Shown here: piece by piece, positions 3,517-22,363 of the stretch | Position numbering within the stretch: the first letter of the stretch is position 1 | How the letters are laid out: the number at the start of each line of letters is the position of its first letter | Assembly: GCA_965200235.1 (NCBI GenBank) | Contig: OZ241339.1 | Span: forward strand, 372,508 to 436,507 | Source: Pseudomonadales bacterium | GTDB taxonomy: Bacteria > Pseudomonadota > Gammaproteobacteria > Pseudomonadales > Azotimanducaceae | Length of the DNA stretch: 64,000 nucleotides | Direction: 5' to 3' | Position numbers and translations under genes: made by a program | Notes under the pieces: model-generated | What the model saw: only the letters and a program-made list of their open reading frames with translations | Told to the model about the DNA's origin: nothing | Databases searched by the model: none

Positions 3517-5352
3517 ATGGATTGGCTTGAAGGTGTGCAGATTGCGCAGGCGGCATCGCGACAGGTGCCTGAAGTGGCATTGCGCGCGATTGATTTGGCT
3601 GGTCAGATGGCGCGGCAGCTCGGTGCCGACGTGTTCGTCGATGCGCACTTTTCCAAGGCTTCGACCTTCCGCAGTCGAGGCAAGCGCCGCTTGCAAACCC
3701 CGGTGGCCGACTGGCTCAATGCCGACGCTGCGCGCTTGGCCGTCATCGCGACTGTCGATGAAAAGGAACTTATCGAGTCCTCCGCCGATCAAAGCCAAGT
3801 CGTGCTGCATGTGGACGCAAGCGCGAGCGAAGCGACGCTCTTCGCCGAATCAGGGCTGGCCGATCTGCTCGGCGATCCGGAGCGCGCGGCGTTGATTCCG
3901 CGAGGCGACTATGCCGCCGGCACGGTTGCGCTCGCCGTGCTTGCGGCAATCACAAGCCTTGTCGCCTTGCGCCGTCGCGGCGGACGCGCAGACATCGCGC
4001 ACATTCATGCGCGAAGCGTTCTGAGCTGGGTCAATTGGAAGGCGGCGGTGGCAGGTGATCTCGGACGAGATCTCAGACGCGAAGGCGCGCGTGCCGAATG
4101 GCCGATCATCCCGTGCAAGGACGGCCATGCGGCGCTGATTTACCAGGAACGCGACTGGCGGAATATCGTCGCGATGGTCGGCGATGCGCGACTTGCTGAG
4201 ACGCGCTTCGACAGCTTTCGCGGGCGCGCCGCGCATCGCGAGGAATACATGGCGATCATTCGCGATTGGGCGGCCGAGCGCACGAAGTCGGCGCTCATGC
4301 AAGCCTTTTTCGAGCACGACATCCCGGCTGCGCCGGTGCTCGATGCGCAAGATTTGCTGGCCGATCCGCTGCTGCGCCATAGGGAGGCACTCGAGTCGGT
4401 GACGCGCGAGTCAGGCAAGGCCGCGCGCTCGCCTCGGCTCGCGCATCGCGTCGCGGCGCTCGGCGAAGCGCAGGAGGCCAAGAACCCCCGTGGCGGGACC
4501 TTGCCGCTTTCTGGCCTGCGCGTCCTTGATCTCGGCATCATCACGGCCGGTGCCGGCGTCTCGGCGCTGCTCGCGGACTTGGGCGCCGAAGTGCTGAAAA
4601 TCGAGTCGCACACCTATCCCGACCCCTTTCGGGCGTGGGCGGGCGAGGCTGTGTCGCCCTTTTTCAAGAGCAACAACCGCAACAAGTACGGCTTGGCGCT
4701 CGATCTCAAGACAGAGCGTGATCGGGCACGGTTCCTCGCCCTCGTGGAAACAGCGGATGTGGTGGTCGAGAACTTTCGTCGAGGCGTTCTCGAACGGCTC
4801 GGGATTGGCTATGAAACGCTTAAATCGGTGAACCCGTCAATCATGCTGGCGTCGATCTCCGGTCAAGGCTTGGACGGGCCAGGCGCCGAAGCGAGCAGCT
4901 TCGGCTCAACCTTGGAAGCCTCGTCAGGCTTCTCGGCGCGCGTGTGCTACGACGATGGCGCGCCCTACACGACCGGGCGCAACGTCAATTATCCGGATCA
5001 AACGGTTGTGCTCTACGCGGCGGCCGTCATCGCCGCGGCCGTGTCAGGCGGCACGCGAGGCATGCACCTTGACGTGTCGCAGCGCGATGTCACGGTCTAT
5101 CTGCTAGGCGAGGAGATTGAGCGCGTTTCGGCGGGGGAAAGAGCGACAGATGTGGCGGTCACACAGAGTGCAAGCGTCAACAAGGGCTCCGAGATGTACG
5201 CGCTCGAGACGGCGTCGCGCACCGATGCCTTTGCCACGGATCCTGACGGCAATCTTGTCAAGGGTTTTCCGTTTCAGTTTCAGCAGGAGCCCATGAGCGT
5301 TCGCATGAACTCGCCGCGGGTTGGAGAGCATACCGATCAGTTCTGCGCATGA
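3517..5352 (+). CDS. CoA-transferase family III (CaiB/BaiF) domain protein, atypically long
   Basis: 611-aa ORF. The C-terminal half starts with the canonical family III N-terminus LSGLRVLDLGIITAGAGVSALLADLGAEVLKIES ... NKYGLALDLK ... ADVVVENFRRGVLERLGIGYE. The N-terminal about 320 aa look like a second, degenerate copy. Confidence 0.7.
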   Translation: MDWLEGVQIAQAASRQVPEVALRAIDLAGQMARQLGADVFVDAHFSKASTFRSRGKRRLQTPVADWLNADAARLAVIATVDEKELIESSADQSQVVLHVDASASEATLFAESGLADLLGDPERAALIPRGDYAAGTVALAVLAAITSLVALRRRGGRADIAHIHARSVLSWVNWKAAVAGDLGRDLRREGARAEWPIIPCKDGHAALIYQERDWRNIVAMVGDARLAETRFDSFRGRAAHREEYMAIIRDWAAERTKSALMQAFFEHDIPAAPVLDAQDLLADPLLRHREALESVTRESGKAARSPRLAHRVAALGEAQEAKNPRGGTLPLSGLRVLDLGIITAGAGVSALLADLGAEVLKIESHTYPDPFRAWAGEAVSPFFKSNNRNKYGLALDLKTERDRARFLALVETADVVVENFRRGVLERLGIGYETLKSVNPSIMLASISGQGLDGPGAEASSFGSTLEASSGFSARVCYDDGAPYTTGRNVNYPDQTVVLYAAAVIAAAVSGGTRGMHLDVSQRDVTVYLLGEEIERVSAGERATDVAVTQSASVNKGSEMYALETASRTDAFATDPDGNLVKGFPFQFQQEPMSVRMNSPRVGEHTDQFCA

Positions 5353-8300
5353 TGCGCTGTGTGTCCATCGATCTCGAGGTCGCTCCGATCGATGGCCGCA
5401 TCCACAAGATCGGTGCCGTGCGCAGCGACAGGGAAGACGATTTTCATCGCGCCGGTGGCCATCTCGGCGCCGCGCTGCAAGCGCTCGACCGCTACGCGCA
5501 TGGCGCGCAGTGCGTGCTTGGACACAATATCATCGAGCATGACCTCAAGTATCTGGCGGCTGCGGATCCGCGACTCGCTCTCTTCAAGCTGCCCGTCATC
5601 GACACCCTTCGCCTGAACCCGCTCGCCTTCCCGGCGCACCCCTACCATCATCTGGTCAAGCACTATCAGGACGGCGGGCTGCTTCGCGGCCAAAAGAACG
5701 ACCCGGTGCTCGATGCGAGGCTCGCGCTCGATGCCTTCGACAATCAGCGAGCGCAATTTGGGGACACACACCCTGATCTGCTTGGCGCTTGGCATTTTCT
5801 CTGTACGCCTGACCACAAAAGACAGGATGCCGCGCTTGATCGTGTGTTTTGCGAACTCAGGGGTGCCGAGCGTCCATCAAAGCAAGAAGCCAAGCGACTG
5901 ATCTTGGCGCGGCTTGCTGGCAAAGCGTGTTCGTTGGTCGCTGAGAAGCTCGCAGACAAGCCGAATCGCCATGGCTGGCCGCTCGCCTATGCGCTCGCAT
6001 GGCTGTCGGTCGCGGGCGGAAACTCGGTGATGCCGCCTTGGGTCGCGCATCAGTTTCCGCTCGCCAAGCGTCTTGTGCGGGATCTGCGCGACAAGGCCTG
6101 TGGACGCCCTAGTTGCGCATGGTGCCGAGCACGGCACGATGCGCGGCAAGAACTGCGTCGCTGGTTCGGGTTCGAAGGTTATCGCGAAGAACCGAAGCAT
6201 ACTGACGGACGCTCGATGCAAGAAGCCATTGTCCGATCGGTGATGGCGGGCGAGCACGTCCTCGGCGTGCTGCCGACCGGTGCTGGCAAATCGATCTGCT
6301 ATCAAGTGCCAGCGCTCTCACGCTATGACAAGACGGGCGCCTTGACGGTGGTGATTTCACCCTTGGTGGCGTTGATGGAAGATCAAGTCAAGGGGCTTGA
6401 GCGCCAAGGGGTCGGCTGTGCCGTCGCCATCAACGGCCTATTGTCGATGCCGGAACGCAAGAACGCGCTTGATCGGGTGCGCCTCGGCGATGCGGGCATC
6501 CTCATGATTTCGCCTGAGCAGCTTCGATCAGTCGCGGTGCGGCGCGTGCTCGGTCAGCGCGAGATCGCAAGCTGGGTGATCGACGAAGCGCACTGCTTGT
6601 CTGGTTGGGGGCAGGATTTTCGGCCTGACTATCGGTACATCTCGCGCTTCATCCGTGAACGCGCGCCCGAGATCCCTCCGATCTTAGGCCTGACCGCGAC
6701 GGCTAAGGCTGCTGTCAAGAACGACATCGTCAATCATTTCCAAGACAAGCTCGGCATCAAGCTGCGCGTGTTCGATGGCGGCGCCGAGCGCTCCAATCTG
6801 GCCTTTGATGTGGTGCCGACGACCCAAGCCGAGAAGTTTGCGCACACCCACCAGATGCTCATCGCGCATTTGCCGGACGACGGTTCCGGCGGCGCCATTG
6901 TCTATTGCGCGACGCGCGGCAAAAGTGAGGAGATGGCGGAGTTTCTCGGCAGGAAAGGCATGGCCGTCGCGCACTTTCACAGCAAGGTGTCGCCGGAAGT
7001 AAAAAAAGACGTGCAAGCCGCGTTCGGGCGCGGCGAACTGCGCGTCATCGCCGCCACCAACGCCTTCGGCATGGGGATCGACAAGCCTGATGTGCGCTTG
7101 GTGATTCACGCCGATGTGCCCGGCTCGCTTGAGAACTATCTGCAAGAGGCGGGTCGGGCTGGGCGTGATCGAGACGCGGCTCGCTGCGTCCTGCTCTACG
7201 CCGCCGATGACGTTGAGGATCAGTTTCGCCTGTCGGCGAGTTCGCGCCTGACGCGCCAAGAGATTCATGGCATCCTGCGGGCGCTTCGCAATATTGATCG
7301 GCGCGGGAGCCGCCACGGCTCTCGGCAACACGGCTCTCGGCAACACGGTTCTCGGCAACACGGTTCTCGGCAAAATGATGTCGTCGCGACGGTTGGCGAG
7401 ATTCTGACCGCCGATGATGAGCATCTATTCGAGCAGGATGCCGCCACCGACGATACGAGGGTGCGCACGGCGGTCTCGTGGCTCGAAGAGGCCGATCTCC
7501 TGACGCGCGAAGAGAATCGCGTCGAGGTCTTTCCCTCGTCGCTGCGCGTGCATTCGCTTGCTGAGGCGGGCAAGCGACTTGCCCGCGCCGAGATCAGCCG
7601 GGAATATCGGCAGAGCCTGCTTGCCATTGCAACCGTGCTCATGCAGGCGAAACCGGACGAGTCGCTGACAACGGACGATCTGATGAATGCCTCAGGACTC
7701 GGAACGTCCGCGGTGCGCGGCGCGCTCTATGATTTGGAGCGACTCGGCATTGCCAGCAATGACACGGCCTTGACTGCGTTTGTGCATCGAGGCGTCGAGC
7801 GAGCGTCAATGCGGCGCTATGAGAATGCCGCCGAACTCGAAGCCGCGCTGATCGAGCATATGCGACTCGCCGCGCCCGATCAGGACAAGGGCGAGGGCGC
7901 CAATCTGCACCTTCGCGTGGCGGCGCAGACGCTCGCCGATGCAGGGATTGAAGCGCCTTTGCCTGAGCGTCTCTGGCGCATCTTGAGGAGTATCGCCGCC
8001 GATGGACGCGAGGAGGAAGGTGGGGTCGGCAGCTTGGAGGTGCACAGGCGTGGTGCCGATGTCGTCTATGTGGTGTTGCGCCGGGATTGGCAGTCCCTCG
8101 CCGAGACGGCGCGCCTCAGGCGCGATGCGGCGCGGCTCTTGCTCGATCATCTCCTGCAGCGACTGCCAGAGGGCGCAAGAGGCGTCGATCTTCTTGTGGA
8201 GACGACGCTTGGCGAACTGACGCGGTGCATCGAAGCTGACTTGGAGATGAAGGCGCGCGTCAAAAAAGTCGCCAAGCTCATGGATCACGCCCTCCTGTGG

Positions 8301-10484
8301 CTGCACGAGCAGGACGTGATACGCCTCAACAAGGGGCTTGCGGTGTTTCGCCCGGCGATGACCATTCGCCTTGCGCGCGGCGAAAAACGTGGCTTCAGCA
8401 ATGCGGACTTCCAGCCGCTTGCCAGGCATTATCAAGGCAAGATCATGCAGATCCATGTGATGAAGGCGTTTGCGGAACGAGGGCTCGAGGCCATGGCGGA
8501 TGCCATGCGGCTCGCGATGGACTACTTTAGTTTGAGCCAAGATGAGTTTCTCAGGCGCTGGCTGCCGCAGTCCGAAAAAGAGCTCGCCCGCCAGACCACG
8601 CCGGAATCCTGGCGCGTGATTGTCGAGAGTCTGCGGCATCCGGTGCAGCAGCGCATCGTCGCGGATGATCGCGAACAAACCAATGTGCTGGTGCTGGCCG
8701 GGCCCGGTTCCGGCAAGACGCGCGTGCTTGTGCATCGCATTGCCTACTTGGTGCGCGTGCGGCGCGAGAATCCGCGTTCGATTCTCGCGCTCGCCTACAA
8801 CAGGCACTCCGCCTTGGACATCAAGCGGCGTTTGCAGGCGCTCATTGGCAGGGATGCCGTGGGCGTGACGGTGCTGACGTGTCATGGCCTTGCCATGCGG
8901 CTTGCTGGCGCCAGCTTTGAGGGCAACATGGAGCGCCCCGATAGCGAGCTATTCAAAGAAGTGCTGCGGCGGGCCGTCAGTATTCTTCGCGGAGAAGACC
9001 TGCCACCCGAGGAAGCCGATGCGCGCCGGGAACGGCTCTTGTCCGGTTTTCGATGGATCCTCGTTGACGAATACCAGGACATCAACGCCGATCAATACGA
9101 TTTGATTTCCGCGCTTGCCGGACGCCTGCGTGATGAGGACGACGGCAAGTTGACGCTCTTTGCGGTGGGTGATGACGACCAGAACATCTATGCCTTCGGC
9201 GGCGCATCGGTTGCGTTCATTCGTCGATTTCAAGAGGATTACGGGCCGCGCCCGGAATACTTGACCGAGAACTATCGATCGAGTGCGCGCATCATCGGCG
9301 CATCGAATGCGCTCATCGCACCATCGGCCTCACGTATGAAGGCCGGTCATGCGATCAAGCGAAACAAGGCGCGAGAGAGAGAATCGCCTGGCGGTGAATG
9401 GGAATCACGCGACCCTGTGGGGCAAGGCCATGTGCAGATAGTGCCGGCGGGCAGCGACGCTGTGTCGCAGGCGGCGGCGGTTGTGGGAGAACTGAAACGA
9501 CTCGAGCGGCTCGATCCGGATTGGCGCTGGTCGCGGGCTGCGGTGATCGCCCGCGAATGGGAGACGCTCGCGCCGTTACGGGCGCTCTGCGAACGCGAAG
9601 GCGTGCCAGTGCAGATGGCCAATGAGAACGCGCCGAGTTTCTTCAGGCTGCGCGAGACGCAGCATCTGCTCACCTGGGTGCGCAGCCGCGAGTCCGGGCT
9701 GATCGATGGGCCCGCATTGCGTGATTGGGCGGCCGCGCAGCCATCTGGCCCGTGGCAGGCGCTGATTGCGCAAGCGATCCATGACTTTGCGCTTGAGAGC
9801 GGGAAGGAAGCGCCGGTTGAGCACTTCGTCGAGTGGCTCGCGGAATGGGGCAGGGAGGCGCGCCGCGAGCAGCGCGGGTTATTGCTTCTCACCGCGCACC
9901 GTGCCAAGGGGCTTGAGTTTGATCATGTCGCGGTCCTTGACGGGCGCTGGGAGCGGGTCGGGCATGGCGAAGATGCGGACGCGCCGCGCCGTCTCTACTA
10001 TGTGGCCATGACGCGGGCGCGCCAAACGCTCACGCTCGCGAGCTTCGAGACGCCTTTGCATCTGTTGGACGCATTGCGCGGTCACGCCGATGTCAGGTGG
10101 CGCGCGCCAGCGACTGGGCAGATCGCGGATGCGTCAGGATTGCAGAAGACCTACCTGTCCGCGAGCTTGGAGCAGGTCGATATCGGCTTTGCCGGTCGGT
10201 GCGGCCAAGAGCACCGAGTGCACCGTTTGATCGCAGCGCTCACGGCTGGCGATGAACTCGATGCAAAGCCTACGGAGCGAGGTGGCTGGAGCCTTTACGA
10301 TGCGCACGGCGCAGTGGTAGGACGCATGGCACGGCGCTTCGAACCACCATCTGGCAAGACTTGCCTGCATGCGAAGGTAGGCGCTATCGTGCGCTGGAGT
10401 CGCGCCTTATCGCAGCCGAAGTACCGGGATTCTGCGAGATGCGATGAGTGGGAGGTGGTGGTGCCTGAGCTTGTGTTTGAATAG
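5349..10484 (+). CDS. DEDD 3'-5' exonuclease + RecQ (SF2) helicase + UvrD/PcrA (SF1) helicase triple-fusion protein
   Basis: 1711-aa ORF with three recognisable modules.
- aa 5-170, exonuclease motifs: [29 protein letters not shown].
- aa about 290-640, RecQ core: [72 protein letters not shown].
- aa about 1090-1640, UvrD core: [88 protein letters not shown].
The start overlaps the upstream stop (ATGA, 5349-5352). Confidence 0.85.
   Translation: [1711 protein letters not shown]
7302..7376 (+). repeat. in-frame 15-bp tandem repeat (GGYTCTCGGCAACAC, about 4-5 units) encoding (GSRQH)n
   Basis: Read directly: units at 7317-7331, 7332-7346, 7347-7361 and a partial 7362-7376, with a degenerate unit before them. 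Peptide: [23 protein letters not shown], between the RecQ core and a winged-helix-like region. Confidence 0.9.
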
Positions 10485-10528
10485 GAGAATGTGGCACTTT
10501 CTCTCGTCGAGGGAGCATTAGAAAACCT

Positions 10529-13186
10529 GTGGCAGGGATGCGACGTCAAACCATCATCACGCTCGGCCGTTTCGCCATGCGCGAGCTTCGCTTGCAAGCG
10601 GCGCGCGAGGCGTCGTCGGGCCTCTCGATACTCACCATCGAGCAATTCGTTGCGCGGCTCGCGGGCGGGTTCGTTCGCGCCATCGACAAGGACACGCTGC
10701 GCGCGGCCATTATGAGGGTGAAGGAGAACACTCACCTCGGCGAATTGGAACCTATCAAGTCGCTGCCTGGCTTTTCGCGCGCCGCGGCGGACACCTTCTG
10801 CAAAGCATGGCTTGCCGGCATCGACATCGCGGCCCGTCAAGGCGAGCATCCGCGCATCGCCGCCATTGCGAGCCTTGAGCAGGCGGTGCTCCGCGAACTG
10901 CCGGCGAATACGCTGACGCCCACCGAGCTTGCCAAGAGAGCGCTCGCACGAGTGCAGCACGTCCGCGCCATCTTTGGCGAGGTGGAAGTCAGAGGATTCA
11001 CCGAGCTGTCGCCGTGCTGGCGCGAGTTGATCGGGTCAGTCGCTGGCGAAACCAAGGTCACTTGGCACGCCGGTCCGCGCGCCGTGCCCGAGTGGCTCGA
11101 TGGCAACAGGCTAGAGATCACAACTTCTTGTCCTGAGCATCCGGGCGTCACTTGTGTGAGCGCCGCCACTGCCTACCACGAGGCGATCGAGGCGATGCGC
11201 TGGGCGCGAGCACTGATCGCGTCCAAGCAAGCGAAGCCCGAGGAGATTGCGATCGCAGCCACCGCGTGCGACGACTACGACGATCATCTGCTTGCGCTGC
11301 GCTCGGACGCCAATATCGACGTTCATTTCGCGCACGGCATTCCGGTCACGGCGACGCGCGACGGGCAGGCGTGCGCGGCGCTCGCCGAGCTTGTTCTGCG
11401 CGGACTCTCGCGCACGAGAATGCACCGGCTCGCGCGACTTCTCGGCAAGTCGCCGGGCCCTTTCGAGTCCTTGCCTGAGGACTGGCTCGGCGCCTTCCCT
11501 GAAAGCGCGCCGCTCACACGGCTTGAGAGCTGGCGAAACTTAATCCTCGCGCAGGGGGATCTCGACTATGGCGCGCAGGTGCAGGACATCGTGGCGATGA
11601 TTGATCGCGGCGCGGAATTCGCAGAAGACACGGGCACAGCCTTGCTGACGGGCAAGGCGCGCCTGATATGGCGGCAGGCGCTTCTTCTCGGCCCGCCCGA
11701 GTCTCTTGACCTCAGCATTGAACGCCTGCGCACCGACGATAGCTTTGACCCCGGCAATTCAATCGCTTGGGCGCCGGCGAGCTCGCTCGCCGCCGCACCA
11801 AGGCCGCATGTCTACCTGCTCGGCCTCAATTCGCAGCGCTGGCCGCATGTGGCTTTTGAAGACCGGCTGCTCTCCGATCACATCATCCCGACTTCGCAAC
11901 TCGATCCGCTGCCGGTGAATCTTGCCGATACCCGCGATTTCGAGACCATTCTTGCGACGAGCGCGGCGTCGGTGGTGCTCTCGCACGCGCGGCGAGATCA
12001 CGAAGGGCGGCTGCTTGGCCGCAGCGCGCTCCTCCAGGGACAACCGAAAGAGATGTATCTCGGACGCCATCGGGTGCCGGTCCACGCTTGTAGCGAAATC
12101 GATCGACTTGCCGCGCGCGTGAATGAATTTGCCGACATGGCGCCCGCGAGAATGGCCGCGGCGTGCTGGCGCGATTGGAACGATCGGCAGGACTTGACCG
12201 CGCACGATGGCATTGTCCAAGCCGATCACCCCATCATCAAAGCGATCTTGCAGCGCACCCAGTCGGCGGCTTCGCTGCGCCTGCTGCTGCGAAATCCAAT
12301 TGGTTTTCTGTGGCGCTATGGCCTCGGCCTGATCGAACCGCAGGCAAGCGAAGATCCCTTGATCCTCGATGCGATCGCCATGGGCGACCTGGTGCACGAG
12401 ATGCTTGAGCATTCGCTCGTCGCGCTTGAGGACAGTCAAGGTCTTGCCAATGTCAGCGAAGGCGATGTGCGCCAGGCGGTCGATCAAGCGTCAAGCGAGC
12501 TTGCCGAGCACTGGCAGTTGTATCGCGCGGTGCCGCCGAGAAAACTTTGGCAGCGTAGCTTGATGGAAGCGCGCAAGCAGAGTGAGCGCGGCCTGCTGCT
12601 TAGGCAAGCTGGCGCCGTCGCCCACGCCGAAGTGCCGTTTGGTGGTGCCGACATCAAGACCACACGCGAACTGCCGTGGGATGCGCAAGCGCCGGTTGAA
12701 ATCCCGCAAGCAGGCTTTCTCATTCAAGGCTATATCGACCGGCTCGATCTCGGCGCCGATGGCGCATCGGCATGGGTGCGAGACTACAAGACCGGCAAGA
12801 CGCCCAAGATCGGCGACGCGCGGCCGTTCGTGCTTGACAAGGGGCGCGAATTGCAGCGCTGCCTCTACGCGTATGCGGTGCGCGCCATGCTTGGGCCGCA
12901 GGTGGATATTCATGCCTCGCTGCACTATTTGCGCGACGATGTGGATCTTGCGCTCGCCGATGCCGAACTCGTGCTTGAGACCCTCTCGTTTTTTCTCGCA
13001 TCGGCGCGCACAAGCTTCCAAAGCGGTGTCTGTGTAATCGGCGCTGACGCTGGCGACACTTACGATGATCTTGCCTTCGCGTTGCCGGCCAACGCCGCCA
13101 ATATCTACTGCAAGGTCAAGCGCGACCTCGTGCGCGACAAAATGAACGAAGCTGGCAATGCTGCAGACGTGTGGGAAGCAGACTGA
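10529..13186 (+). CDS. AddB-like PD-(D/E)XK nuclease family protein (inactive-helicase-like N-terminus)
   Basis: 885-aa ORF with no clear Walker A. C-terminal RecB-type nuclease motif GYIDRLDLGADGASAWVRDYKTGK ... LQRCLYAYA. It sits 5' of, and overlaps (TGATG, 13184-13188), an AddA-like gene, as in addB-addA operons. An alternative ATG start exists at 10538. Confidence 0.7.
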   Translation: MAGMRRQTIITLGRFAMRELRLQAAREASSGLSILTIEQFVARLAGGFVRAIDKDTLRAAIMRVKENTHLGELEPIKSLPGFSRAAADTFCKAWLAGIDIAARQGEHPRIAAIASLEQAVLRELPANTLTPTELAKRALARVQHVRAIFGEVEVRGFTELSPCWRELIGSVAGETKVTWHAGPRAVPEWLDGNRLEITTSCPEHPGVTCVSAATAYHEAIEAMRWARALIASKQAKPEEIAIAATACDDYDDHLLALRSDANIDVHFAHGIPVTATRDGQACAALAELVLRGLSRTRMHRLARLLGKSPGPFESLPEDWLGAFPESAPLTRLESWRNLILAQGDLDYGAQVQDIVAMIDRGAEFAEDTGTALLTGKARLIWRQALLLGPPESLDLSIERLRTDDSFDPGNSIAWAPASSLAAAPRPHVYLLGLNSQRWPHVAFEDRLLSDHIIPTSQLDPLPVNLADTRDFETILATSAASVVLSHARRDHEGRLLGRSALLQGQPKEMYLGRHRVPVHACSEIDRLAARVNEFADMAPARMAAACWRDWNDRQDLTAHDGIVQADHPIIKAILQRTQSAASLRLLLRNPIGFLWRYGLGLIEPQASEDPLILDAIAMGDLVHEMLEHSLVALEDSQGLANVSEGDVRQAVDQASSELAEHWQLYRAVPPRKLWQRSLMEARKQSERGLLLRQAGAVAHAEVPFGGADIKTTRELPWDAQAPVEIPQAGFLIQGYIDRLDLGADGASAWVRDYKTGKTPKIGDARPFVLDKGRELQRCLYAYAVRAMLGPQVDIHASLHYLRDDVDLALADAELVLETLSFFLASARTSFQSGVCVIGADAGDTYDDLAFALPANAANIYCKVKRDLVRDKMNEAGNAADVWEAD

Positions 13187-16100
13187 TGGTCGCGCTGCCC
13201 GACAATGACGCTCGGCGCGATGCCATGCGCGTCCATGACCGCACCTATCTGGTCGAAGCTGGCGCCGGCTCCGGCAAGACAGCCGTGCTCGCCGGACGCA
13301 TCGTCATGCTGCTCGCCGCCGGCGTCAAGCCAAAGCACATCGCGGCGGTGACCTTCACGGAACTCGCTGCAAGCGAACTCTTGGTTCGTGTCCGCAAGTT
13401 TGTGGACGCGCTGATGGCCGGCAACACTCCGGATGAGCTTGTGCTCGCGCTGCCGGACAGCCTCGCCGACGCCGAGCGCACGCACCTCGAAGATGCGTTG
13501 AAGCGTTTCGACGAGATCACATGCTCGACGATTCACGGCTTTTGCCAGCAGCTCATCAAACCCTATCCGGTGGCGGCGGACTTGGACCCCGGCGCGAGCG
13601 TGATGGATCGCGATCAAGCGGATTTAAGCTTCTTGGAGACGCGCACGCAATGGCTGAAGGGGAGGCTCGACCTTGAAGAGGACACGCCTCTCGCCAGCCT
13701 TGTTTGGCATGACCAGGCGAAATCGATCACGCTGTTTGATGAGGTGCTGGACATCCTGCGAGAGCACCCCCACATGGAAGTGCGCCAGTCAGTCCGTTTT
13801 GATGACCAGTGGAACGAATTCAAGGATGCCGCGGCGTCGTTCTCGGCCTTCATGGAAGGATGCCCGGTGTCAGAGCCGGAAACCGCGCAGATCGTGCACG
13901 CACTTCGCGGGATCGCGGCTGGTCACCAGGCAGCTGAAGAAATCGAGCGCCTGCTCAACGTCATGTCGGTGGGCGACGACCTGACGCTGTTCACGAAGGA
14001 CCGCAAGCCTCGCAGCTACAGGATGAAAGGCAAGTGGGAGAAAGCTGCGCAACAGGACGGCCTGTCCAAGGCCGAAGGCGGGCGCTGCTTTGAGACCGCC
14101 AAGGCAATCTACGGAATGTGCCTTGAATCCTTGCAGGCCCTGCAAGCGATTGCTTGCTCGACACTGCTGCGCCTCATCGTCTCTGAACTCAAGCCTGTGA
14201 TTGACGCATATCACGCGCACAAGCGCCGCACGGCGCAGCTCGATTTTGACGATCTCATTCGTGGCGCGCGCGATCTGCTGTGCGGTCATGAGGACATTCG
14301 CGTTGCCCTCGGCCGTCGCTACACGCACGTCCTCGTCGATGAGTTTCAAGATACGAACCTGCTGCAGACGGAGATCTTCTGGCGGTTGTGCGGGGACGCC
14401 CCCTCGGATGCAGCGCGCGACGACTGGACAGCATTCCGTATTCGTCCGGGGGCGCTCTTCCTCGTCGGCGACCCAAAGCAGGCGATCTACCGATTTCGCG
14501 GCGCCGATGTCGCGGCCTATGTGCGAGCGCGCGCGCTGCTGCTTGGCGAGGATGAAGGCGCGCTGCTTCGCATCTCCACCAATTTTCGCTCGCTGCCGTC
14601 GATTCTTGCGCATGTGAACGAGAAGTTCGAAGAGCCCTTGTCGGTGGAAGCCGGACAGCCCGGGTTTACGCCGCTCGATGCGTTTCTCGAAGAGACCTCC
14701 GCGCAGAGTCTTGCGCGCCTCGACGTCACCGTCGAGCCGGACGAGCAGGGTAAGGTGTCCGTGGACAGTCAACGGCAAGCCGAGGCCGATGCGGTGGCGC
14801 TCGTGTGCGCGAAGCTGATCGGCAGTGAGATGCTGCCGGGTGACGATGCCGGGTCGCGAACAGTCAAGCCCGGTGACATCGCGCTGCTCGCGCCTTCCGG
14901 CACCGATCTTTGGCGCTACGAGGAAGCCTTGGAGCGGCTCGCTATTCCGGTCGCCACGCAAGCCGGCAAGGGTCTCTACCGACGCCAGGAAATTCAAGAC
15001 CTGATCGCGCTCACGCGCGTGCTCGCCGACAGTCGGGATACCCTTGCGCTTGGTGCGCTGCTGCGCGGGCCGCTGGTCGGACTCAGCGACGAGGCGCTGC
15101 TTGACATCGCCCTACATGTGCGCGGCGAAAGCGAGGATATACCGCGCCTGCGTCTCTTCATGGAACTCGAACAGATCGACAACAGCGAAGCTCGCGATGT
15201 GATCGGCAAACTGCAATTTCTCTACGGCAAGGCAGCAAGCACCACGCCGCACCATCTCATCTCGCAGGCGATCGATCTCCTGCATGTTCGTCCGATCCTC
15301 ATGCGCCGCCACGCTGGCCAGGCAACGCGCGTGCTCGCCAATGTGGACTTGTATCTCAGCATGAGCCGCGCCTATGCGGTGCGCGGATTGAAAGCCTTTG
15401 CCGAAGCCATGACCGCCGCATGGCACGACGAGCAGCGCGCGCCGGAAGGACGTCCCGACGCGCAGGAAGAGTCGGTTGCGCTGTTCACCATGCACGCGGC
15501 CAAGGGCCTCGAGTGGCGCATCGTAGTGCCGGTGAACACCATGACCCAAGTGCGATCCGCCGACGGACAGTTTGTTGACCGCGTCAACGGATACTTCTAT
15601 TGCAAGGCGTTCGGCACCAAGCCGCTCGGCTATGATGAGGCGCAGCAAGCAGAGCAAGACGAGCTTGATCGCGAGCGAGTGCGCCTCTGGTATGTGGCGA
15701 CGACGCGCGCGCGGGATTTGCTGGTGCTGCCGAATGTGATGGCGGATCGTAAGAGCAACGTGTGGTCGGGGGTCGTTCCGCTCGACATCGAGTCTCTGCC
15801 AGAGATCAATCTTGAAGAGTTGTCGCCCGAACTGCCCGCGGTTGAAGGCGAGCTCGTGAACGAACAGACGCGCGAAGTGTTCGCTGAGGAGGCGAAGATC
15901 ATTGCGCATGGTCATCGGCGCATTGCCTGGCGCAGTCCAAGCCGAGATGAAGACATTGCCGCGCCGCTTGCTTCGGAAGTTGAGGGTGAGGTGTTTGCCA
16001 ATGACGATGAGGCGTCTCCCCCCGCAGTCGATGGGCTTGACGTGCAAGGCGGACTGCAGCGCGGTCTGCTGATACACAAGCTCTTTGAAGAAGTGCTGAC

Positions 16101-16527
16101 CGGCGAGTGCCAAGAGAATGAAGCGGACTTGACCGCGCGCGCCGAAACGCTCATCGGCGAACTTGGGCGCACTGCGAGCGAGAACGCTGCCGATGGTCTG
16201 TCGCCCGCCGAACTCGCCGGATGCGTGCGACGCGGACTCGCGCTGCCGCAAGTTGCCGAATTACGACCGCGCCTCGTCGCAGAATGCAGCGTCTTCGGGT
16301 CGCGCATCGAAGCGGACACCGAGCTCATGTTCGCCGGTATTGCCGATGCCATTGCGTTCGACACCACGGGCGCGCCCGAAGTGGTCATCGATTGGAAGAC
16401 CGACGTTGACCCGCGGACAAGTCAACTCAAGCACTATGGCGAGCAGGTGCGCGCCTATCTTGAACTCACCGGCGCGAAGCGTGGGCTTGTTGTGCTGGTG
16501 ACCACAGGACGGGTGCTTGCGGTCTGA
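13186..16527 (+). CDS. AddA-like UvrD-family helicase with C-terminal RecB-type nuclease
   Basis: Helicase motifs: YLVEAGAGSGKTAVLAGRIV, HVLVDEFQDTNLLQTEIF, LFLVGDPKQAIYRFRGA, STNFRS, LFTMHAAKGLEWRIV, LWYVATTRARDLL. C-terminal nuclease: IADAIAFDTTGAPEVVIDWKTD ... YGEQVRAYLELT. The track ORF starts at GTG 13171; I prefer ATG 13186, which overlaps the upstream stop. Confidence 0.85.
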   Translation: MVALPDNDARRDAMRVHDRTYLVEAGAGSGKTAVLAGRIVMLLAAGVKPKHIAAVTFTELAASELLVRVRKFVDALMAGNTPDELVLALPDSLADAERTHLEDALKRFDEITCSTIHGFCQQLIKPYPVAADLDPGASVMDRDQADLSFLETRTQWLKGRLDLEEDTPLASLVWHDQAKSITLFDEVLDILREHPHMEVRQSVRFDDQWNEFKDAAASFSAFMEGCPVSEPETAQIVHALRGIAAGHQAAEEIERLLNVMSVGDDLTLFTKDRKPRSYRMKGKWEKAAQQDGLSKAEGGRCFETAKAIYGMCLESLQALQAIACSTLLRLIVSELKPVIDAYHAHKRRTAQLDFDDLIRGARDLLCGHEDIRVALGRRYTHVLVDEFQDTNLLQTEIFWRLCGDAPSDAARDDWTAFRIRPGALFLVGDPKQAIYRFRGADVAAYVRARALLLGEDEGALLRISTNFRSLPSILAHVNEKFEEPLSVEAGQPGFTPLDAFLEETSAQSLARLDVTVEPDEQGKVSVDSQRQAEADAVALVCAKLIGSEMLPGDDAGSRTVKPGDIALLAPSGTDLWRYEEALERLAIPVATQAGKGLYRRQEIQDLIALTRVLADSRDTLALGALLRGPLVGLSDEALLDIALHVRGESEDIPRLRLFMELEQIDNSEARDVIGKLQFLYGKAASTTPHHLISQAIDLLHVRPILMRRHAGQATRVLANVDLYLSMSRAYAVRGLKAFAEAMTAAWHDEQRAPEGRPDAQEESVALFTMHAAKGLEWRIVVPVNTMTQVRSADGQFVDRVNGYFYCKAFGTKPLGYDEAQQAEQDELDRERVRLWYVATTRARDLLVLPNVMADRKSNVWSGVVPLDIESLPEINLEELSPELPAVEGELVNEQTREVFAEEAKIIAHGHRRIAWRSPSRDEDIAAPLASEVEGEVFANDDEASPPAVDGLDVQGGLQRGLLIHKLFEEVLTGECQENEADLTARAETLIGELGRTASENAADGLSPAELAGCVRRGLALPQVAELRPRLVAECSVFGSRIEADTELMFAGIADAIAFDTTGAPEVVIDWKTDVDPRTSQLKHYGEQVRAYLELTGAKRGLVVLVTTGRVLAV

Positions 16528-16640
16528 TAGTCATCGACACGCTCAGCTTAGGCGGTAGCCAATGAATGATAAACTGTGACCCAAATCGAGCGGAACTGAA
16601 TATCCGCTCCTATGTGCGCGATTGATCGGTGCGTGGCCCA

Positions 16641-17087
16641 ATGCAAGAGATCAGAATTTTCATCAACGACAAGCCTCGAGCCATCGTGGGTTTAGAGCAT
16701 AGTGTCGAGGCTATGCTTAAGGAAGGCGAATGCACAAGCGAGAATGGCGTATTGGTGACTAACGACGGTATCACCCATGACGACCCTGCTGAGATTGTTC
16801 GTATTGGCGATGGCGATAGGTTGAAAGTATTGCCGGTAGGCGGCGACCGCACCATTTGCTACCAAGTCAACGGCGAGGCCCAAACTACCGTTAGCAGCCC
16901 TTTGACTGTGGGGGAAATCCTTGAACGCGCTGGCGCGTCAGCTAGCGTCAATGTCAATGATCGAGCCAGCTACTATCTTGAGAACCTTGCGACTGAGCAA
17001 CGTTACGACGACCCCGATGCTGAAGTAGCAGTTTGCGAGGATGATCGATTTATAGCTGTGCATCGCGGCCCAGCACCCGTTGCATGA
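16641..17087 (+). CDS. tandem beta-grasp (multi-ubiquitin-like) protein
   Basis: 148 aa from ATG 16641 (GTG 16629 also possible). Two similar halves, IRIFINDKPRAIVG...DRLKVLP and ICYQVNGEAQTTVSSPLTVGEIL...RFIAVHRG. It ends PAPVA with no terminal GG. Its stop overlaps the next start (ATGA, 17084-17087), and it lies in an operon with E2-like and JAB-E1 genes. Confidence 0.65.
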   Translation: MQEIRIFINDKPRAIVGLEHSVEAMLKEGECTSENGVLVTNDGITHDDPAEIVRIGDGDRLKVLPVGGDRTICYQVNGEAQTTVSSPLTVGEILERAGASASVNVNDRASYYLENLATEQRYDDPDAEVAVCEDDRFIAVHRGPAPVA

Positions 17088-17461
17088 CGCCTATCACGAA
17101 GGTCTTGGCCGAGCTGCAAGAGCTAGGACACGCTGCGCAGTGTTGCCAGCCCGACGGTTTCGGGTATGTCCTTGCAGTATTCGAGTATCCAGTCGATTCA
17201 GGCCGGTTTCGTGGGCACAGATTTAGAGTGGGCATAGGCTTTCAGGAAGATGCGTATCCCGAGTATCCGCCACACTGGCTATGCGTCTCGTCCTTGTCTG
17301 ACAATAGGATCCCTCAGCATAGCGGATTCACATTTGAAGGTGCCGATTGGCGTGTGTTCAGCGTCCCGCCTAGCGATGTCTGGGATTCGTTGCCGACTTC
17401 GCAGAAGAATATGAAAACCTATCTTCGCTTGCACATGACTCGATTCTGGGATCAGGTGTGA
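17084..17461 (+). CDS. prokaryotic E2 (UBC-fold)-like protein
   Basis: 125-aa ORF with the UBC/RWD-like motif AYPEYPPHW followed by Cys (HWLCVSS). It is coupled to both neighbours by 4-nt overlaps (ATGA at 17084, GTGA at 17458). Confidence 0.6.
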   Translation: MTPITKVLAELQELGHAAQCCQPDGFGYVLAVFEYPVDSGRFRGHRFRVGIGFQEDAYPEYPPHWLCVSSLSDNRIPQHSGFTFEGADWRVFSVPPSDVWDSLPTSQKNMKTYLRLHMTRFWDQV

Positions 17462-18960: not shown

Positions 18961-18973
18961 GTAAAATAGCACC

Positions 18974-20200: not shown

Positions 20201-20234
20201 CCTGTCAAGTTTCGTATATAAATCCCTTTTATAA
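20050..20234 (+). ncRNA. expected omega-RNA (reRNA) scaffold of TnpB, overlapping the tnpB 3' end and right end
   Basis: Pure inference from the known TnpB architecture, in which the omega-RNA spans the ORF 3' end to the right end. No structure was verified. The boundaries are approximate. Confidence 0.25.
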
Positions 20235-20249
20235 AGGGGCTGCGACCTG

Positions 20250-21488: not shown

Positions 21489-21527
21489 TTATGATGAGAG
21501 TGGTGGCAGGGCCCGGCTTGCGGATTA

Positions 21528-21772
21528 GGGCGTGTTAACACTATGCACGTTGACGCTGCCGAGACCCGTTTTCCGCCAGACAAGGCCGAGCGAGCGCTGT
21601 GTGGCCTACCCCACATGAGCGAGCGAGAACGAAGGCTGGCGGAAAACGGGGCCGGCCCGAAGGGTTGTCGCCTGAGCAAGAGCCGGAGCGAACACTTTGG
21701 GGCATGCGAATGGGCTTTTTCGGCTCTTGCACAGGCGACAACAGCGTCGGTGGGCATAGTGTTAACACGCCC
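21528..21772. mobile_element. MITE family A, copy 1 (about 245 bp, perfect TIR, TA flanks within TTAG/CTAG)
   Basis: TIR GGGCGTGTTAACACTATGC (21528-21546) and its exact reverse complement at 21754-21772. The interior is highly self-complementary. A second, inverted copy with about 90% identity lies at 31458-31704. Confidence 0.8.
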
Positions 21773-21856
21773 TAGATGGAATGCCTCAGCCACTTCAAGA
21801 ATGGACACGTCCTAATATGTGCCAGCGTTCCGCTCGAATCTGGAGGCTCTTCAAGA

Positions 21857-22300: not shown

Positions 22301-22363
22301 GCTTGCTCGCGGCGGTAGTTGCAATCGAGACGTAGGAGTCATTCAAGGCATAAGAGGTTGCTG

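What the first reader, a model, noticed from the sequence alone, without database searches (positions are those of the whole stretch)
5349..16527. Three-gene helicase/nuclease cassette: Exo-RecQ-UvrD triple fusion + AddB-like + AddA-like
Seen in sequence:
- Three large, same-strand, closely packed genes (45-nt gap, then a TGATG overlap).
- Together they encode one DEDD exonuclease, one SF2 RecQ core, two SF1 UvrD cores and two RecB-type PD-(D/E)XK nucleases.

Established:
- AddAB is a double-strand-break end-processing machine.
- Helicase-nuclease combinations recur in anti-phage systems such as Gabija, Hachiman and Nhi-like.

Inference:
- The cassette lies immediately next to a defence-type island and is unusually elaborate.
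- It could be a dedicated foreign-DNA degradation or recombination module rather than the housekeeping AddAB.
- I do not recognise a described system with this exact composition.
Basis: partly seen in the sequence, partly recalled or inferred. Interest (0 to 1): 0.7.

Follow-up and report, generated by a model that had tools for sequence, protein, structure and literature searches.

The report
Two adjacent accessory helicase–nuclease modules
The three big genes are real and contain the domains claimed. They are not one three-gene system, though, but two separate, horizontally spread and uncharacterised DNA-processing modules that are neighbours only in this bacterial lineage: a solitary exonuclease–RecQ–UvrD giant, and an AddAB-like nuclease/helicase pair that elsewhere sits in plasmid defence islands.

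Summary
**Observation: confirmed.**
- P1 (5349-10484, 1711 aa) contains a DnaQ/DEDD-fold domain, a RecQ-type core, a family-specific middle region, a UvrD core and an unknown C-terminal domain.
- P2 (10529-13186) is AddB-like by fold and has an intact RecB-type nuclease.
- P3 (13186-16527) is AddA-like.

**Interpretation: partly supported.** The trio is not a unit.
- Searching from P1: 0 of 23 diverse genomes with at least 6 kb of downstream sequence carry P2/P3.
- Searching from P2: 0 of 80 metagenomic loci carry P1, while P3 follows P2 in 66 of 66 loci that have room for it.
- Only the window's own gammaproteobacterial clade (5 of 5 loci) keeps P1 upstream of P2-P3. The spacer there varies from 44 nt to 5.8 kb and holds IS, toxin-antitoxin and methyltransferase genes.

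**Both modules are accessory and horizontally spread.**
- P1 is 58-64% identical across phyla, is found on plasmids, and has no conserved neighbour.
- P2-P3 is on 59 plasmids, mostly conjugative. It lies between Shango, Azaca and BREX, often with a divergent WYL regulator.
- Neither module is in phage genomes, PADLOC v2 or the searched literature.

**Most likely reading:** two independent anti-foreign-DNA or DNA-end-processing modules. A housekeeping role in this clade cannot be excluded without the whole genome.

The parts
5349..10484 (+). P1: solitary 1711-aa Exo-RecQ-middle-UvrD-CTD protein (module A)
   Evidence: ORF. The whole length is conserved. The family has 889 representative clusters, and the full-length members listed among the best 150 are 1670-1911 aa. 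No neighbour is conserved.
5349..5768 (+). P1 aa 1-140: DnaQ/DEDD-fold 3'-5' exonuclease-like domain. D8, E10, D65 and D122 are invariant; Asn117 occupies the DEDDh His position; the invariant PYHHLVKHY loop lies at aa 98-106.
   Evidence: Alignment; model; Foldseek. HMMs and PDB sequence search are negative.
5769..6197 (+). P1 aa 141-283: helical extension with an invariant Cys/His cluster (C251, C256, C259, H263; nt 6099-6137), a possible zinc knuckle
   Evidence: The metal-binding role is inferred.
6198..7268 (+). P1 aa 284-640: RecQ-family SF2 motor (GAGKS 311-315, DEAH 412-415), without the RecQ C-terminal Zn/WH/HRDC region
7299..7376 (+). P1 aa 651-676: low-complexity insert (HGSRQ x4), seen only in this window's copy among the 15 homologues aligned
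7377..8645 (+). P1 aa 677-1099: family-specific, mostly helical middle region with only weak winged-helix-like signals
8646..10058 (+). P1 aa 1100-1570: UvrD/Rep-type SF1A motor (GPGSGKT 1118-1124, DEYQD 1240-1244, VAMTRAR 1552-1558)
10059..10481 (+). P1 aa 1571-1711: C-terminal domain of unknown fold (invariant G, H, W)
10529..13186 (+). P2: AddB-like subunit (module B). The N-terminal helicase-like scaffold has no Walker A motif. The RecB-type nuclease is at aa 579-803 (nt 12263-12937: GYIDRLD 734-740, DYK 752-754, QRCLY 776-780). No CxxC Fe-S cysteines are present.
   Evidence: Foldseek's top five hits are AddB chain B, followed by AdnA (the model is weak).
13186..16527 (+). P3: AddA-like helicase-nuclease (module B). 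The SF1A motor spans nt 13204-15768 and the RecB-type nuclease nt 16057-16479. Its start codon overlaps the P2 stop (TGATG).
   Evidence: Best solved relative is AddA 3u44_A, E=4e-33. P3 follows P2 in 66 of 66 loci with room.
3517..5352 (+). Upstream CoA-transferase family III gene whose stop overlaps the P1 start (ATGA). It is not part of either module.
   Evidence: It is absent upstream of P1 in related loci.
16629..25237 (+). Strain-specific low-GC island inserted after P3. It holds a multi-Ub-like/E2-like/JAB-E1 module, TnpB, an NsnB/AriA-like ATPase and a PglX/IIG-like methyltransferase. It is context, not part of the modules.
   Evidence: It is absent in the sister genome L002.

Best explanation
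The region holds two independent, self-contained accessory DNA-processing modules. They are neighbours only in this gammaproteobacterial lineage.

**Module B (P2+P3)** is an obligate, translationally coupled AddAB-type heterodimer with one SF1A 3'-5' motor (P3) and two RecB-type nucleases (one in P3, one in P2).
- Inferred mechanism, by analogy with AddAB, AdnAB and RecBCD: it loads on a free duplex DNA end, P3 unwinds, and the two nucleases cut the two strands.
- Linear or broken DNA is thereby degraded or resected.
- Its habitual home is defence islands on conjugative plasmids, often behind a divergent WYL regulator. I therefore think its primary role is to destroy incoming or replicating foreign linear DNA, or to back up an inhibited host RecBCD/AddAB. 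I put this at about 0.5.

**Module A (P1)** is a solitary protein that joins a DnaQ-fold 3'-5' exonuclease-like domain to two 3'-5' motors, one RecQ-type SF2 and one UvrD-type SF1.
- Inferred mechanism: it engages 3'-tailed, forked or D-loop intermediates. The two motors work on the two arms or strands, and the N-terminal domain trims or holds the freed 3' end.
- This would be a WRN/ExoDinG-like logic with an added anti-recombinase-type motor.
- I put an anti-mobile-element (defence) role at about 0.35 and an accessory genome-maintenance role at about 0.35.

**Shown here:** gene structure, domain folds, motif integrity, distribution, and linkage or its absence.
**Inferred:** all biochemical activities and the biological role.
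For: **The two modules are independent.**
- P2/P3 are absent near P1 in 0 of 23 diverse genomes.
- No flanking family recurs with P1.
- P1 is absent from 80 of 80 P2 loci, while P3 follows P2 in 66 of 66 loci with room.
- In Sulfitobacter faviae SCSIO W_1865 the two modules appear to sit on different plasmids, NZ_CP116424 and NZ_CP116427. The strain is confirmed only for the first.

**Module B works like AddAB.**
- The best solved relative of P3 is AddA.
- The P2 fold search ranks AddB chain B first, five times over, and AdnA next.
- Nuclease motifs are intact in both proteins, and only P3 has a Walker A motif.
- The stop/start overlap is seen in six of the eight homologous loci read.

**Module B is accessory and defence-associated.**
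- It is on 59 plasmids; 39 of the 60 matching plasmid records are predicted conjugative.
- Its flanks hold Shango, Azaca and BREX-1, Mod/Res-like genes and E1/multi-ubiquitin modules.
- A divergent WYL regulator is present in 36 of 80 loci, and Azaca in 10-12 of 80.
- Its nearest relatives outside the clade are alphaproteobacterial and actinobacterial.

**Module A is horizontally spread.**
- It is 58-64% identical across Pseudomonadota, Acidobacteriota, Nitrospirota, Chloroflexota and Actinomycetota. For comparison, DapD is only about 55% identical to its nearest named relatives, other Gammaproteobacteria.
- It is on 22 plasmids.
- Its neighbourhoods hold toxin-antitoxin genes, integrases, IS elements, restriction-modification and CRISPR.
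- About 8% of its flanking ORFs are strong PADLOC matches.
- All catalytic motifs of both motors and the four DEDD acids are invariant.

**Neither family occurs in 50,697 phage records**.
Against: - No functional data exist for either family.
- Association with defence islands is circumstantial.
- WYL regulators also control DNA-damage-response genes, so the WYL link fits repair as well as defence.
- Inside the window's clade both modules look like stable, vertically inherited residents. DapD/P2 identities in shared genomes run 89/80, 79/65, 76/68 and 71/59%, the GC content is core-like, and synteny with NMO and dapDE is kept. That pattern is unusual for fast-turnover defence genes.
- In this clade the P1-then-P2-P3 order is kept in 5 of 5 loci.
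- The flanks of P1 are a mixture with many ordinary metabolic genes.
- The P2 model is of low confidence (pLDDT 57).
- The DEDDh His is replaced by Asn in P1, so exonuclease activity is uncertain.
Confidence: 0.6

Rival explanations
1. One reading: P1+P2+P3 form one three-gene helicase/nuclease system. P1 would unwind or expose ends, and the AddAB-like pair would degrade them, the three acting together against foreign DNA.
For: - The genes are tightly packed in the window: a 44-nt gap, then an overlap, with no terminator-like site between them.
- The same order and strand are kept in 5 of 5 genomes of the clade.
- Elsewhere P2-P3 is often followed by another large helicase. A 1112-aa ResIII/SNF2-like protein is present in 10 of 80 loci. 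The pair may therefore take accessory helicases as partners.
Against: - There is no co-localisation outside the clade: 0 of 23 from the P1 side and 0 of 80 plus 8 plasmids from the P2 side.
- Within the clade the spacer holds unrelated opposite-strand genes, toxin-antitoxin pairs and IS elements.
- L001 carries P1 without the pair nearby.
- On two counts the modules appear on different replicons in one strain.
Confidence: 0.1
2. A housekeeping reading. In this clade P2-P3 is the cell's main double-strand-break end-resection enzyme, a divergent AddAB, and P1 is an accessory RecQ-type repair helicase. The defence-island contexts elsewhere would be incidental.
For: - P2 divergence tracks DapD within the clade, and one 18.9-kb contig holds both dapD and P2.
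- The GC content is core-like.
- The position between NMO and T2SS-N/dapE/dapD is kept in the sister genome, and NMO also lies upstream in L091.
- No WYL regulator is present here.
- The architecture matches AddAB: one motor and two nucleases.
Against: - P3 is far below the AddA and RecB equivalog cutoffs, and P2 matches no AddB model.
- Gammaproteobacteria normally use RecBCD (textbook knowledge, not tested here).
- The family's relatives outside the clade are on plasmids of alphaproteobacteria, hosts that (own knowledge) already have AddAB.
- Toxin-antitoxin and IS insertions occur within and around the pair.
- No LexA box is found.
Confidence: 0.2
3. A mobile-element-serving reading. Both modules benefit the plasmids or islands that carry them, for example through damage-inducible repair, replication-fork rescue, or protection and processing of transferred DNA. 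They would not attack invaders.
For: - P2-P3 is strongly biased to conjugative plasmids, and P1 is found on megaplasmids.
- CapW, a WYL-family repressor, senses ssDNA or DNA damage (abstract of PMC11662680, seen).
- RecQ, UvrD and AddAB are classically repair and recombination enzymes.
Against: - The immediate neighbours are bona fide defence systems, not transfer or replication genes.
- Chromosomal copies are common.
- Both families are absent from phage genomes.
Confidence: 0.1

Closest known systems
AddAB (B. subtilis AddA/AddB; PDB 3u44, 4ceh)
   Same: - It is a two-subunit enzyme with one active SF1A motor plus a RecB-type nuclease (AddA, like P3).
- The second subunit is a helicase-like scaffold with its own RecB-type nuclease (AddB, like P2).
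- The B-then-A gene order with coupled translation is shared.
- It is the top sequence hit for P3 and the top fold hit for P2.
   Different: - P2 has no Walker A motif and no four-Cys Fe-S cluster.
- P2 is about 260 aa shorter than AddB.
- Sequence similarity is too low for any AddA or AddB equivalog model.
- P2-P3 is plasmid-borne and sits in defence islands, often WYL-linked.
- Chi recognition is unknown.
AdnAB (mycobacterial helicase-nuclease; PDB 6ppr, 7sjr, 9np6)
   Same: - It is a heterodimer of two UvrD-like subunits, each with a RecB-type nuclease, and has no Fe-S cluster.
- AdnA is the second-best fold match for P2.
- AdnB is among the sequence hits for P3.
   Different: AdnA keeps helicase motifs, whereas P2 lacks Walker A. 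Identity is low and the taxonomic range differs.
WRN (eukaryotic RecQ helicase with an N-terminal DEDD exonuclease) and ExoDinG (S. aureus / B. subtilis DinG with an N-terminal DEDDh exonuclease; PMC11981726)
   Same: - A DnaQ-fold 3'-5' exonuclease domain is fused N-terminally to a 3'-5' or repair helicase.
- S. aureus DinG is the best fold match for the P1 N-terminus.
   Different: - P1 carries a second motor (UvrD-type SF1), a 420-aa novel middle region and a novel C-terminal domain.
- It lacks RQC/HRDC.
- It has Asn in place of the DEDDh His or DEDDy Tyr.
- Its helicase is RecQ-type, not DinG/XPD-type.
Helicase-containing defence proteins: DpdF, PsyrT/RqlH, GajB (Gabija), Nhi/Hna-type helicase-nucleases
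   Same: - The P1 RecQ core scores best against DpdF and PsyrT models, and its UvrD core against GajB models.
- It shares the single-polypeptide or small-operon helicase(+nuclease) logic and the island context.
   Different: - These are domain-level hits only. No PADLOC model covers P1 end to end, and P2 has no PADLOC hit at all.
- No partner genes such as GajA, the Dpd cluster or PsyrA are nearby.

Membership tests
AddAB helicase-nuclease | AddA-type subunit: a complete SF1A UvrD-like motor followed by a C-terminal RecB-type PD-(D/E)XK nuclease | tested here: met
   P3 has GAGSGKT, DEFQD and VATTRAR, plus the D..DWK..QxxxY nuclease motif. Pfam finds UvrD plus PDDEXK_1. The best PDB sequence hit is AddA 3u44_A, E=4e-33.
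AddAB helicase-nuclease | AddB-type subunit: a helicase-like fold without motor activity, plus a C-terminal RecB-type nuclease | tested here: met
   The nuclease motifs are intact and there is no Walker A motif. Foldseek ranks 1-5 are AddB chain B (E about 1e-11) and ranks 6-8 are AdnA. Caveat: the model has pLDDT 57, and there is no sequence-level PDB hit.
AddAB helicase-nuclease | Fe-S cluster (four Cys) stapling the AddB nuclease domain | tested here: not met
   Only C546 and C778 are invariant in 19 homologues, and no CxxC motif follows the nuclease.
AddAB helicase-nuclease | Scores above the curated NCBIfam equivalog cutoffs for AddA and AddB | tested here: not met
   P3 scores 269.6 bits on addA_alphas against a cutoff of 860.75. 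P2 hits no AddB model and only 45 bits on TIGR03623 against a cutoff of 299.6.
AddAB helicase-nuclease | Chi-regulated end resection and RecA loading; the main double-strand-break repair route of the cell | not testable with these tools
   This needs the whole genome (is recBCD or addAB present?), genetics and biochemistry.
RecQ family helicase | SF2 RecA-lobe core with a DEAH box, above the RecQ-family subfamily threshold | tested here: met
   TIGR00614 scores 297.6 bits against a cutoff of 219.8, over aa 283-629. GAGKS and DEAH are invariant.
RecQ family helicase | RecQ C-terminal region (Zn-binding plus winged helix) and HRDC, as in E. coli RecQ | tested here: not met
   Only model positions 8-342 of 470 align. 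The RecQ equivalog scores 334 against a cutoff of 640. There is no Cys between aa 614 and 959. The middle region gives no RQC or HRDC hit.
DEDD (DnaQ-like) 3'-5' exonuclease | RNase H-like DnaQ fold | tested here: met
   The AF2 model has pLDDT 82. The top Foldseek hits are DinG-Exo, the DnaQ domain, and Pol II and T7 exonuclease domains.
DEDD (DnaQ-like) 3'-5' exonuclease | Four metal-binding acidic residues (Exo I DxE, Exo II D, Exo III D) | tested here: met
   D8, E10, D65 and D122 are invariant in 17 sequences at 33-57% identity.
DEDD (DnaQ-like) 3'-5' exonuclease | A fifth catalytic residue, His (DEDDh) or Tyr (DEDDy), four or three residues before the last Asp (definition as in PMC11981726) | tested here: not met
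   The position is Asn117 and is nearly invariant. An invariant His-rich loop (PYHHLVKHY, aa 98-106, disordered in the model) might substitute, but this is untested.
Known anti-phage defence systems (PADLOC-DB v2.0: Gabija, Dpd, PsyrTA, Hachiman, PDC/HEC candidates and others) | A full-length match of the proteins to the system's models, with the system's partner genes present | tested here: not met
   P1 and P3 give only domain-level hits (DpdF, PsyrT, GajB, RTasHel). P2 gives none. No partner genes are present.

The most novel reading that the evidence does not exclude
Both modules could be undescribed immune systems.

- **P2-P3** would be a WYL-controlled, plasmid-disseminated AddAB-type 'end-destroyer' that restricts phages or rival plasmids. 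It might act as a decoy-proof backup when the host's RecBCD/AddAB is inhibited.
- **The P1 family** would be a single-protein immunity factor. It comprises about 900 clusters at 50% identity with a fixed architecture of about 1700 aa. It would use two 3'-5' motors and a DnaQ-fold domain to dismantle replication or recombination intermediates of mobile elements.
- **In this clade** the two may additionally have become functionally coupled.
Probability: 0.3. Interest if true: 0.75.

Novelty: new variant of a known kind. Interest (0 to 1): 0.55.

Why it matters
If the inference holds, this window points to two widespread, uncharacterised helicase/nuclease families.

**The AddAB-type pair.**
- It has left the housekeeping niche and travels with Shango, Azaca and BREX on conjugative plasmids.
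- This bears directly on the long-standing idea that RecBCD/AddAB-type end-degrading enzymes are a primary layer of immunity.
- It also bears on how that layer is backed up or mobilised.

**The Exo-RecQ-UvrD giant.**
- It is a bacterial "WRN-plus" protein that combines an SF2 motor, an SF1 motor and a proofreading-type exonuclease fold in one chain.
- That combination is not described in the searched literature.
- It is conserved at about 60% identity across phyla.

Both are easy to test by heterologous expression. There is also a cautionary result: tight packing of three big DNA-enzyme genes in one genome did not mean one system.

Tried and rejected
**Searches that found nothing.**
1. HMM and PDB-sequence searches on the P1 N-terminus, middle region and C-terminus gave nothing significant. 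Only the N-terminus was resolved, by structure prediction.
2. The Nostoc punctiforme split copy could not serve as a bridge to a "3'-5' exonuclease". That label sits on a UvrD_C fragment of a broken copy, not on the N-terminal domain.
3. The P2 profile found no solved structure by sequence.
4. LexA/SOS box, sigma-70 promoter and terminator scans gave nothing above chance.
5. Seven literature searches and one paper probe found no description of either module.
6. Phage genomes hold no homologue of the P1 middle domain or of P2.

**Ideas rejected.**
7. The window's ThiF/E1 module has no sequence similarity to the plasmid "multiubiquitin-ThiF-DUF6527" module next to P2-P3. Their co-location is therefore treated as defence-island coincidence.
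8. A conserved partner of P1 was ruled out by all-vs-all clustering of 560 flanking ORFs.
9. Filing P1 as DpdF, PsyrT or GajB was rejected because the hits are domain-level only and no partner genes are present.

**Not possible with these tools.**
10. I could not check the rest of this genome for recBCD, addAB, recQ or uvrD. I had access only to the 64-kb window and to 25-kb slices of relatives.

Full report
**1. What is there**

- P1 at 5349-10484 (1711 aa).
- P2 at 10529-13186 (885 aa).
- P3 at 13171/13186-16527 (1118 or 1113 aa).

The P1-P2 gap is 44 nt. The P2 stop and the P3 ATG overlap as TGATG. GC content (62-64%) matches the upstream housekeeping genes. The 16.6-25.2 kb stretch downstream is lower in GC, at 54-58%.

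**2. Domain inventory**

Pfam and NCBIfam confirm the following:
- A RecQ-type SF2 core in P1 at aa 284-640. The recQ_fam subfamily scores 297.6 bits against a cutoff of 219.8. The RecQ equivalogs are far below their cutoffs, and only the two RecA lobes align.
- A UvrD-type SF1 core in P1 at aa 1100-1570.
- A PD-(D/E)XK nuclease in P2 at aa 579-803.
- UvrD plus PD-(D/E)XK in P3.

Catalytic motifs are intact:
- P1 has GAGKS/DEAH and GPGSGKT/DEYQD/VAMTRAR.
- P3 has GAGSGKT/DEFQD/VATTRAR plus D..DWK..QxxxY.
- P2 has GYIDRLD..DYK..QRCLY, but no Walker A motif and no CxxC Fe-S cysteines.

The claimed DEDD exonuclease is invisible to Pfam, NCBIfam and a profile search of PDB sequences. Two lines of evidence support it instead.
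- A 17-sequence alignment shows DxE, GHNx4D and NDPxxDA motifs, with D8, E10, D65 and D122 invariant.
- A confident AlphaFold model of aa 1-290 (pLDDT 82.4, pTM 0.79) finds DnaQ-type exonuclease domains as its best structural matches. These are S. aureus DinG's N-terminal exonuclease, a Cas-associated DnaQ domain, and the Pol II and T7 proofreading domains.

The fold and the four acids are therefore confirmed. The residue that activates water in DEDDh or DEDDy enzymes (definition in PMC11981726) is Asn117 here, so activity is not certain. An invariant His-rich loop (PYHHLVKHY) is disordered in the model.

P1 has three further conserved parts that have no detectable relatives:
- A helical extension with an invariant C251/C256/C259/H263 cluster.
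- A middle region of about 420 aa with only weak winged-helix-like signals.
- A C-terminal domain of about 140 aa.

For P3, the best solved relative by sequence is B. subtilis AddA (3u44_A, E=4e-33), ahead of UvrD, RecB and AdnB.

P2 has no sequence-level link to any solved structure. Its AlphaFold model is weak overall (pLDDT 57). Even so, Foldseek ranks AddB chain B in positions 1-5 (E about 1e-11), then mycobacterial AdnA, then UvrD/PcrA. The nuclease part matches Cas4, MGME1 and Dna2.

"AddB-like + AddA-like" is therefore a fair structural description. Formal membership fails on two features: the curated score thresholds and the Fe-S cluster.

**3. Is the trio a unit? No.**

*From the P1 side.*
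- Full-length P1 homologues are very common: more than 120 clusters at 63% identity or above over 100% of the length.
- A scan of species-representative genomes returned full-length copies at 36-64% identity. They come from Rhodobacterales, Pseudomonadales, Burkholderiaceae, Acidobacteriota, Nitrospirota, Desulfobulbus, Chloroflexota, Acidimicrobiia, Verrucomicrobiia and others.
- tblastn with P2 and P3 against those loci found the pair next to P1 only in L002, the 90%-identical sister genome. It found none in the 23 diverse loci that have at least 6 kb of downstream sequence.
- All-vs-all clustering of 560 flanking ORFs found no gene family that recurs with P1.

*From the P2 side.* I examined 80 metagenomic loci with P2 at 50-57% identity (results).
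- P3 follows P2 in 66 of 66 loci that have room for it.
- P1-specific segments occur in 0 of 80 loci. Of these, 40 have at least 6 kb upstream and 42 have at least 7 kb downstream.
- None of the 8 annotated plasmid contexts holds P1.
- In Sulfitobacter faviae the two modules lie on different plasmid records, apparently of one strain.

*Within the window's own clade.*
- P1 lies upstream of P2-P3 on the same strand in 5 of 5 loci.
- The spacer varies: 44 nt here; 2.0 kb with an IS in L002; and 3.3-5.8 kb in L090-L092, holding an opposite-strand methyltransferase, PIN/Phd and DUF1428 genes.
- In L092 a toxin-antitoxin pair even sits between P2 and P3.
- In a second assembly that carries the identical P1 protein (L001), the pair is not nearby.

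The tight packing in this window is therefore a local state of a conserved chromosomal neighbourhood. It is not a conserved operon.

**4. What kind of genes are these?**

*P1.*
- Its middle domain defines a coherent family: 889 representative clusters at E<=1e-3 and 228 at E<=1e-30.
- The full-length members listed among the best 150 are 1670-1911 aa, with the domain at the same position, down to about 30% identity.
- It is 58-64% identical between phyla. The housekeeping DapD of this organism is only about 55% identical to its nearest named relatives, other Gammaproteobacteria. This indicates horizontal spread.
- It occurs on 22 plasmids.
- Its neighbourhoods differ every time. They hold PemK, HicAB, AbiE, RES-Xre, HipA, BrnT and VapC toxin-antitoxin modules, integrases, IS elements, SSB, type I restriction-modification and type I-D CRISPR, alongside ordinary metabolic genes.
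- About 10 of 123 flanking ORFs (8%) are strong PADLOC matches, including type I, III and IV restriction, HmaC, PDC-S01 and PDC-S05.

*P2-P3.*
- Outside the clade, the nearest relatives (53-56% identity) are from Hyphomicrobiales, Rhodospirillales, a Bradyrhizobium plasmid and Solirubrobacteraceae.
- 59 plasmids carry it at full length. 39 of the 60 matching plasmid records are predicted conjugative.
- On plasmids it is flanked by complete known defence systems:
  - Shango SngABC directly upstream (L094, L098).
  - Azaca ZacAB(+helicase) directly downstream (L096, L097, L099).
  - BREX-1 (L095).
  - A methylase/helicase pair (L100).
  - A multiubiquitin/ThiF/DUF6527 module (L097, L099).
- A divergent WYL-domain regulator lies just upstream in 36 of 80 metagenomic loci. 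Azaca is present in 10-12, a 1112-aa ResIII/SNF2-like helicase in 10, and Shango in 2-3.

*Both modules.*
- Neither family is found in 50,697 phage records.
- PADLOC v2 has no model for P2 and only domain-level hits for P1 and P3.
- PGAP names them only "RecQ family ATP-dependent DNA helicase", "PD-(D/E)XK nuclease family protein" and "UvrD-helicase domain-containing protein".
- Seven literature searches found no description of either.

**5. The counter-current: stability in this clade**

The organism is a gammaproteobacterium. Its nearest named DapD relatives are "Pseudomonadales bacterium" MAGs at about 55% identity.

The DapD/P2 identities are 89/80, 79/65, 76/68 and 71/59%. One 18.9-kb contig holds both genes.

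In the sister genome, P3 is followed directly by T2SS-N/dapE/dapD. The window's defence-type island is therefore a later insertion at that junction.

Within this lineage P2-P3, and likewise P1, look vertically inherited and stable. No WYL regulator is present here. No LexA box, promoter or terminator signal stands out.

This keeps a housekeeping or domesticated role alive for this clade. Whether the genome also has RecBCD could not be tested with a 64-kb window.

**6. Mechanism (inferred)**

*P2-P3* has exactly the AddAB logic, with one 3'-5' SF1A motor and two RecB-type nucleases in a translationally coupled pair.
- It most likely binds duplex ends, unwinds, and cuts both strands.
- In the defence-island setting this would destroy linear phage or plasmid DNA, or substitute for a host RecBCD/AddAB that has been inhibited.
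- WYL control suggests induction by ssDNA or damage signals. CapW-type WYL repressors sense ssDNA (PMC11662680 abstract).

*P1* couples two 3'-5' motors of different superfamilies to a DnaQ-fold domain.
- The nearest analogies are WRN and ExoDinG (exonuclease plus helicase), with UvrD's strand-displacing or anti-recombinase motor added.
- A plausible action is on forks, D-loops or 3'-tailed intermediates.
- Nothing here shows whether the target is foreign or self DNA.

**7. Verdict**

- This is not a three-gene system. It is two independent, uncharacterised, horizontally mobile helicase/nuclease modules.
- One of them, P2-P3, is a well-supported candidate defence system by genomic association.
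- Confidence that the modules are independent is about 0.8.
- Confidence in a defence role is about 0.5 for P2-P3 and about 0.35 for P1.
- Novelty: new variants of known kinds (AddAB-type enzymes and exonuclease-helicase fusions).
- Interest is moderate to good. Both families are large, unstudied and readily testable.

**8. Limits**

- No whole genome was available.
- The P2 model is of low confidence.
- PADLOC-DB dates from 2023.
- Only open-access literature was searched.
- Flanking ORFs were called mechanically.

Noticed in passing
window 16629-18960 (+): Three co-oriented, overlapping genes sit directly after P3. The first is a 152-aa protein with two beta-grasp-like repeats. The second is a 125-aa E2-like protein. 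The third is a 500-aa protein with an N-terminal JAMM motif (HNHLAPGWQDMSEPD) fused to a ThiF E1 domain. Together they look like a bacterial ubiquitination-like (Bil/Bub-type) defence module. They are absent from the sister genome. On Rhizobium and Agrobacterium plasmids a non-homologous multiubiquitin/ThiF/DUF6527 module sits right next to the P2-P3 pair.
   Followed up: partly
window 18974-25237 (+): The rest of the low-GC island holds a TnpB (IS605 OrfB), an ABC-type ATPase resembling NsnB/AriA/HEC-03B (20250-21488), a 174-aa ORF, and a 972-aa PglX/type IIG-like methyltransferase (22319-25237). This may be a Menshen/PARIS-like system or a restriction-modification-like system.
   Followed up: partly
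window 32434-56262 (+): A single giant ORF of 7942 aa with very high third-position GC (0.84), in a 66-70% GC stretch with a strong negative GC skew. It is probably a giant repeat, adhesin or RTX-type surface protein. I did not examine it.
   Followed up: no
window 7299-7376 (P1 aa 651-676): A low-complexity tandem insert (HGSRQ x4) lies in the linker after the RecQ core. Among the 15 homologues aligned it is present only in this window's copy of P1.
   Followed up: partly
window 3517-5352 / 5349: A 611-aa CoA-transferase family III gene overlaps the P1 start codon (ATGA), implying co-transcription of a metabolic gene with P1 in this strain. Relatives have other genes upstream of P1.
   Followed up: partly
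L094:15062-18400, L095:15069-18407; L118, L140, L142, L143, L149, L152, L153, L159, L165, L172: A conserved 1112-aa ResIII/SWI2-SNF2-like helicase with weak PbeA similarity follows P3 on the same strand in 10 of 80 metagenomic loci and on three of the plasmids read (L094, L095, L098). It often comes before Azaca. It could be an optional third component of the P2-P3 system or a separate single-gene system.
   Followed up: partly
L097:1-4409 and L099:1-4388: On Rhizobium phaseoli and Agrobacterium fabrum plasmids, a [quoted passage not shown] trio lies upstream of the multiubiquitin/E1 module and P2-P3. This is another uncharacterised helicase module in the same island.
   Followed up: no
L092:12854-13530: In a 3.6-Mb relative, a Phd/PIN toxin-antitoxin pair is inserted between the P2 and P3 homologues. 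This breaks the otherwise conserved translational coupling.
   Followed up: no
L088 (Nostoc punctiforme pNPUN02) 5824-10842: A distant P1-family copy is split into three annotated CDSs (RecQ family helicase | UvrD-helicase domain protein | "3'-5' exonuclease"). It is probably a frameshifted or decaying copy. The "exonuclease" label is on a UvrD_C fragment.
   Followed up: partly
rows H46/H47: Two Mesorhizobium plasmid hits report record coordinates 10529-13183. These are identical to the window coordinates of my query. This is either a striking coincidence or a reporting artefact.
   Followed up: no
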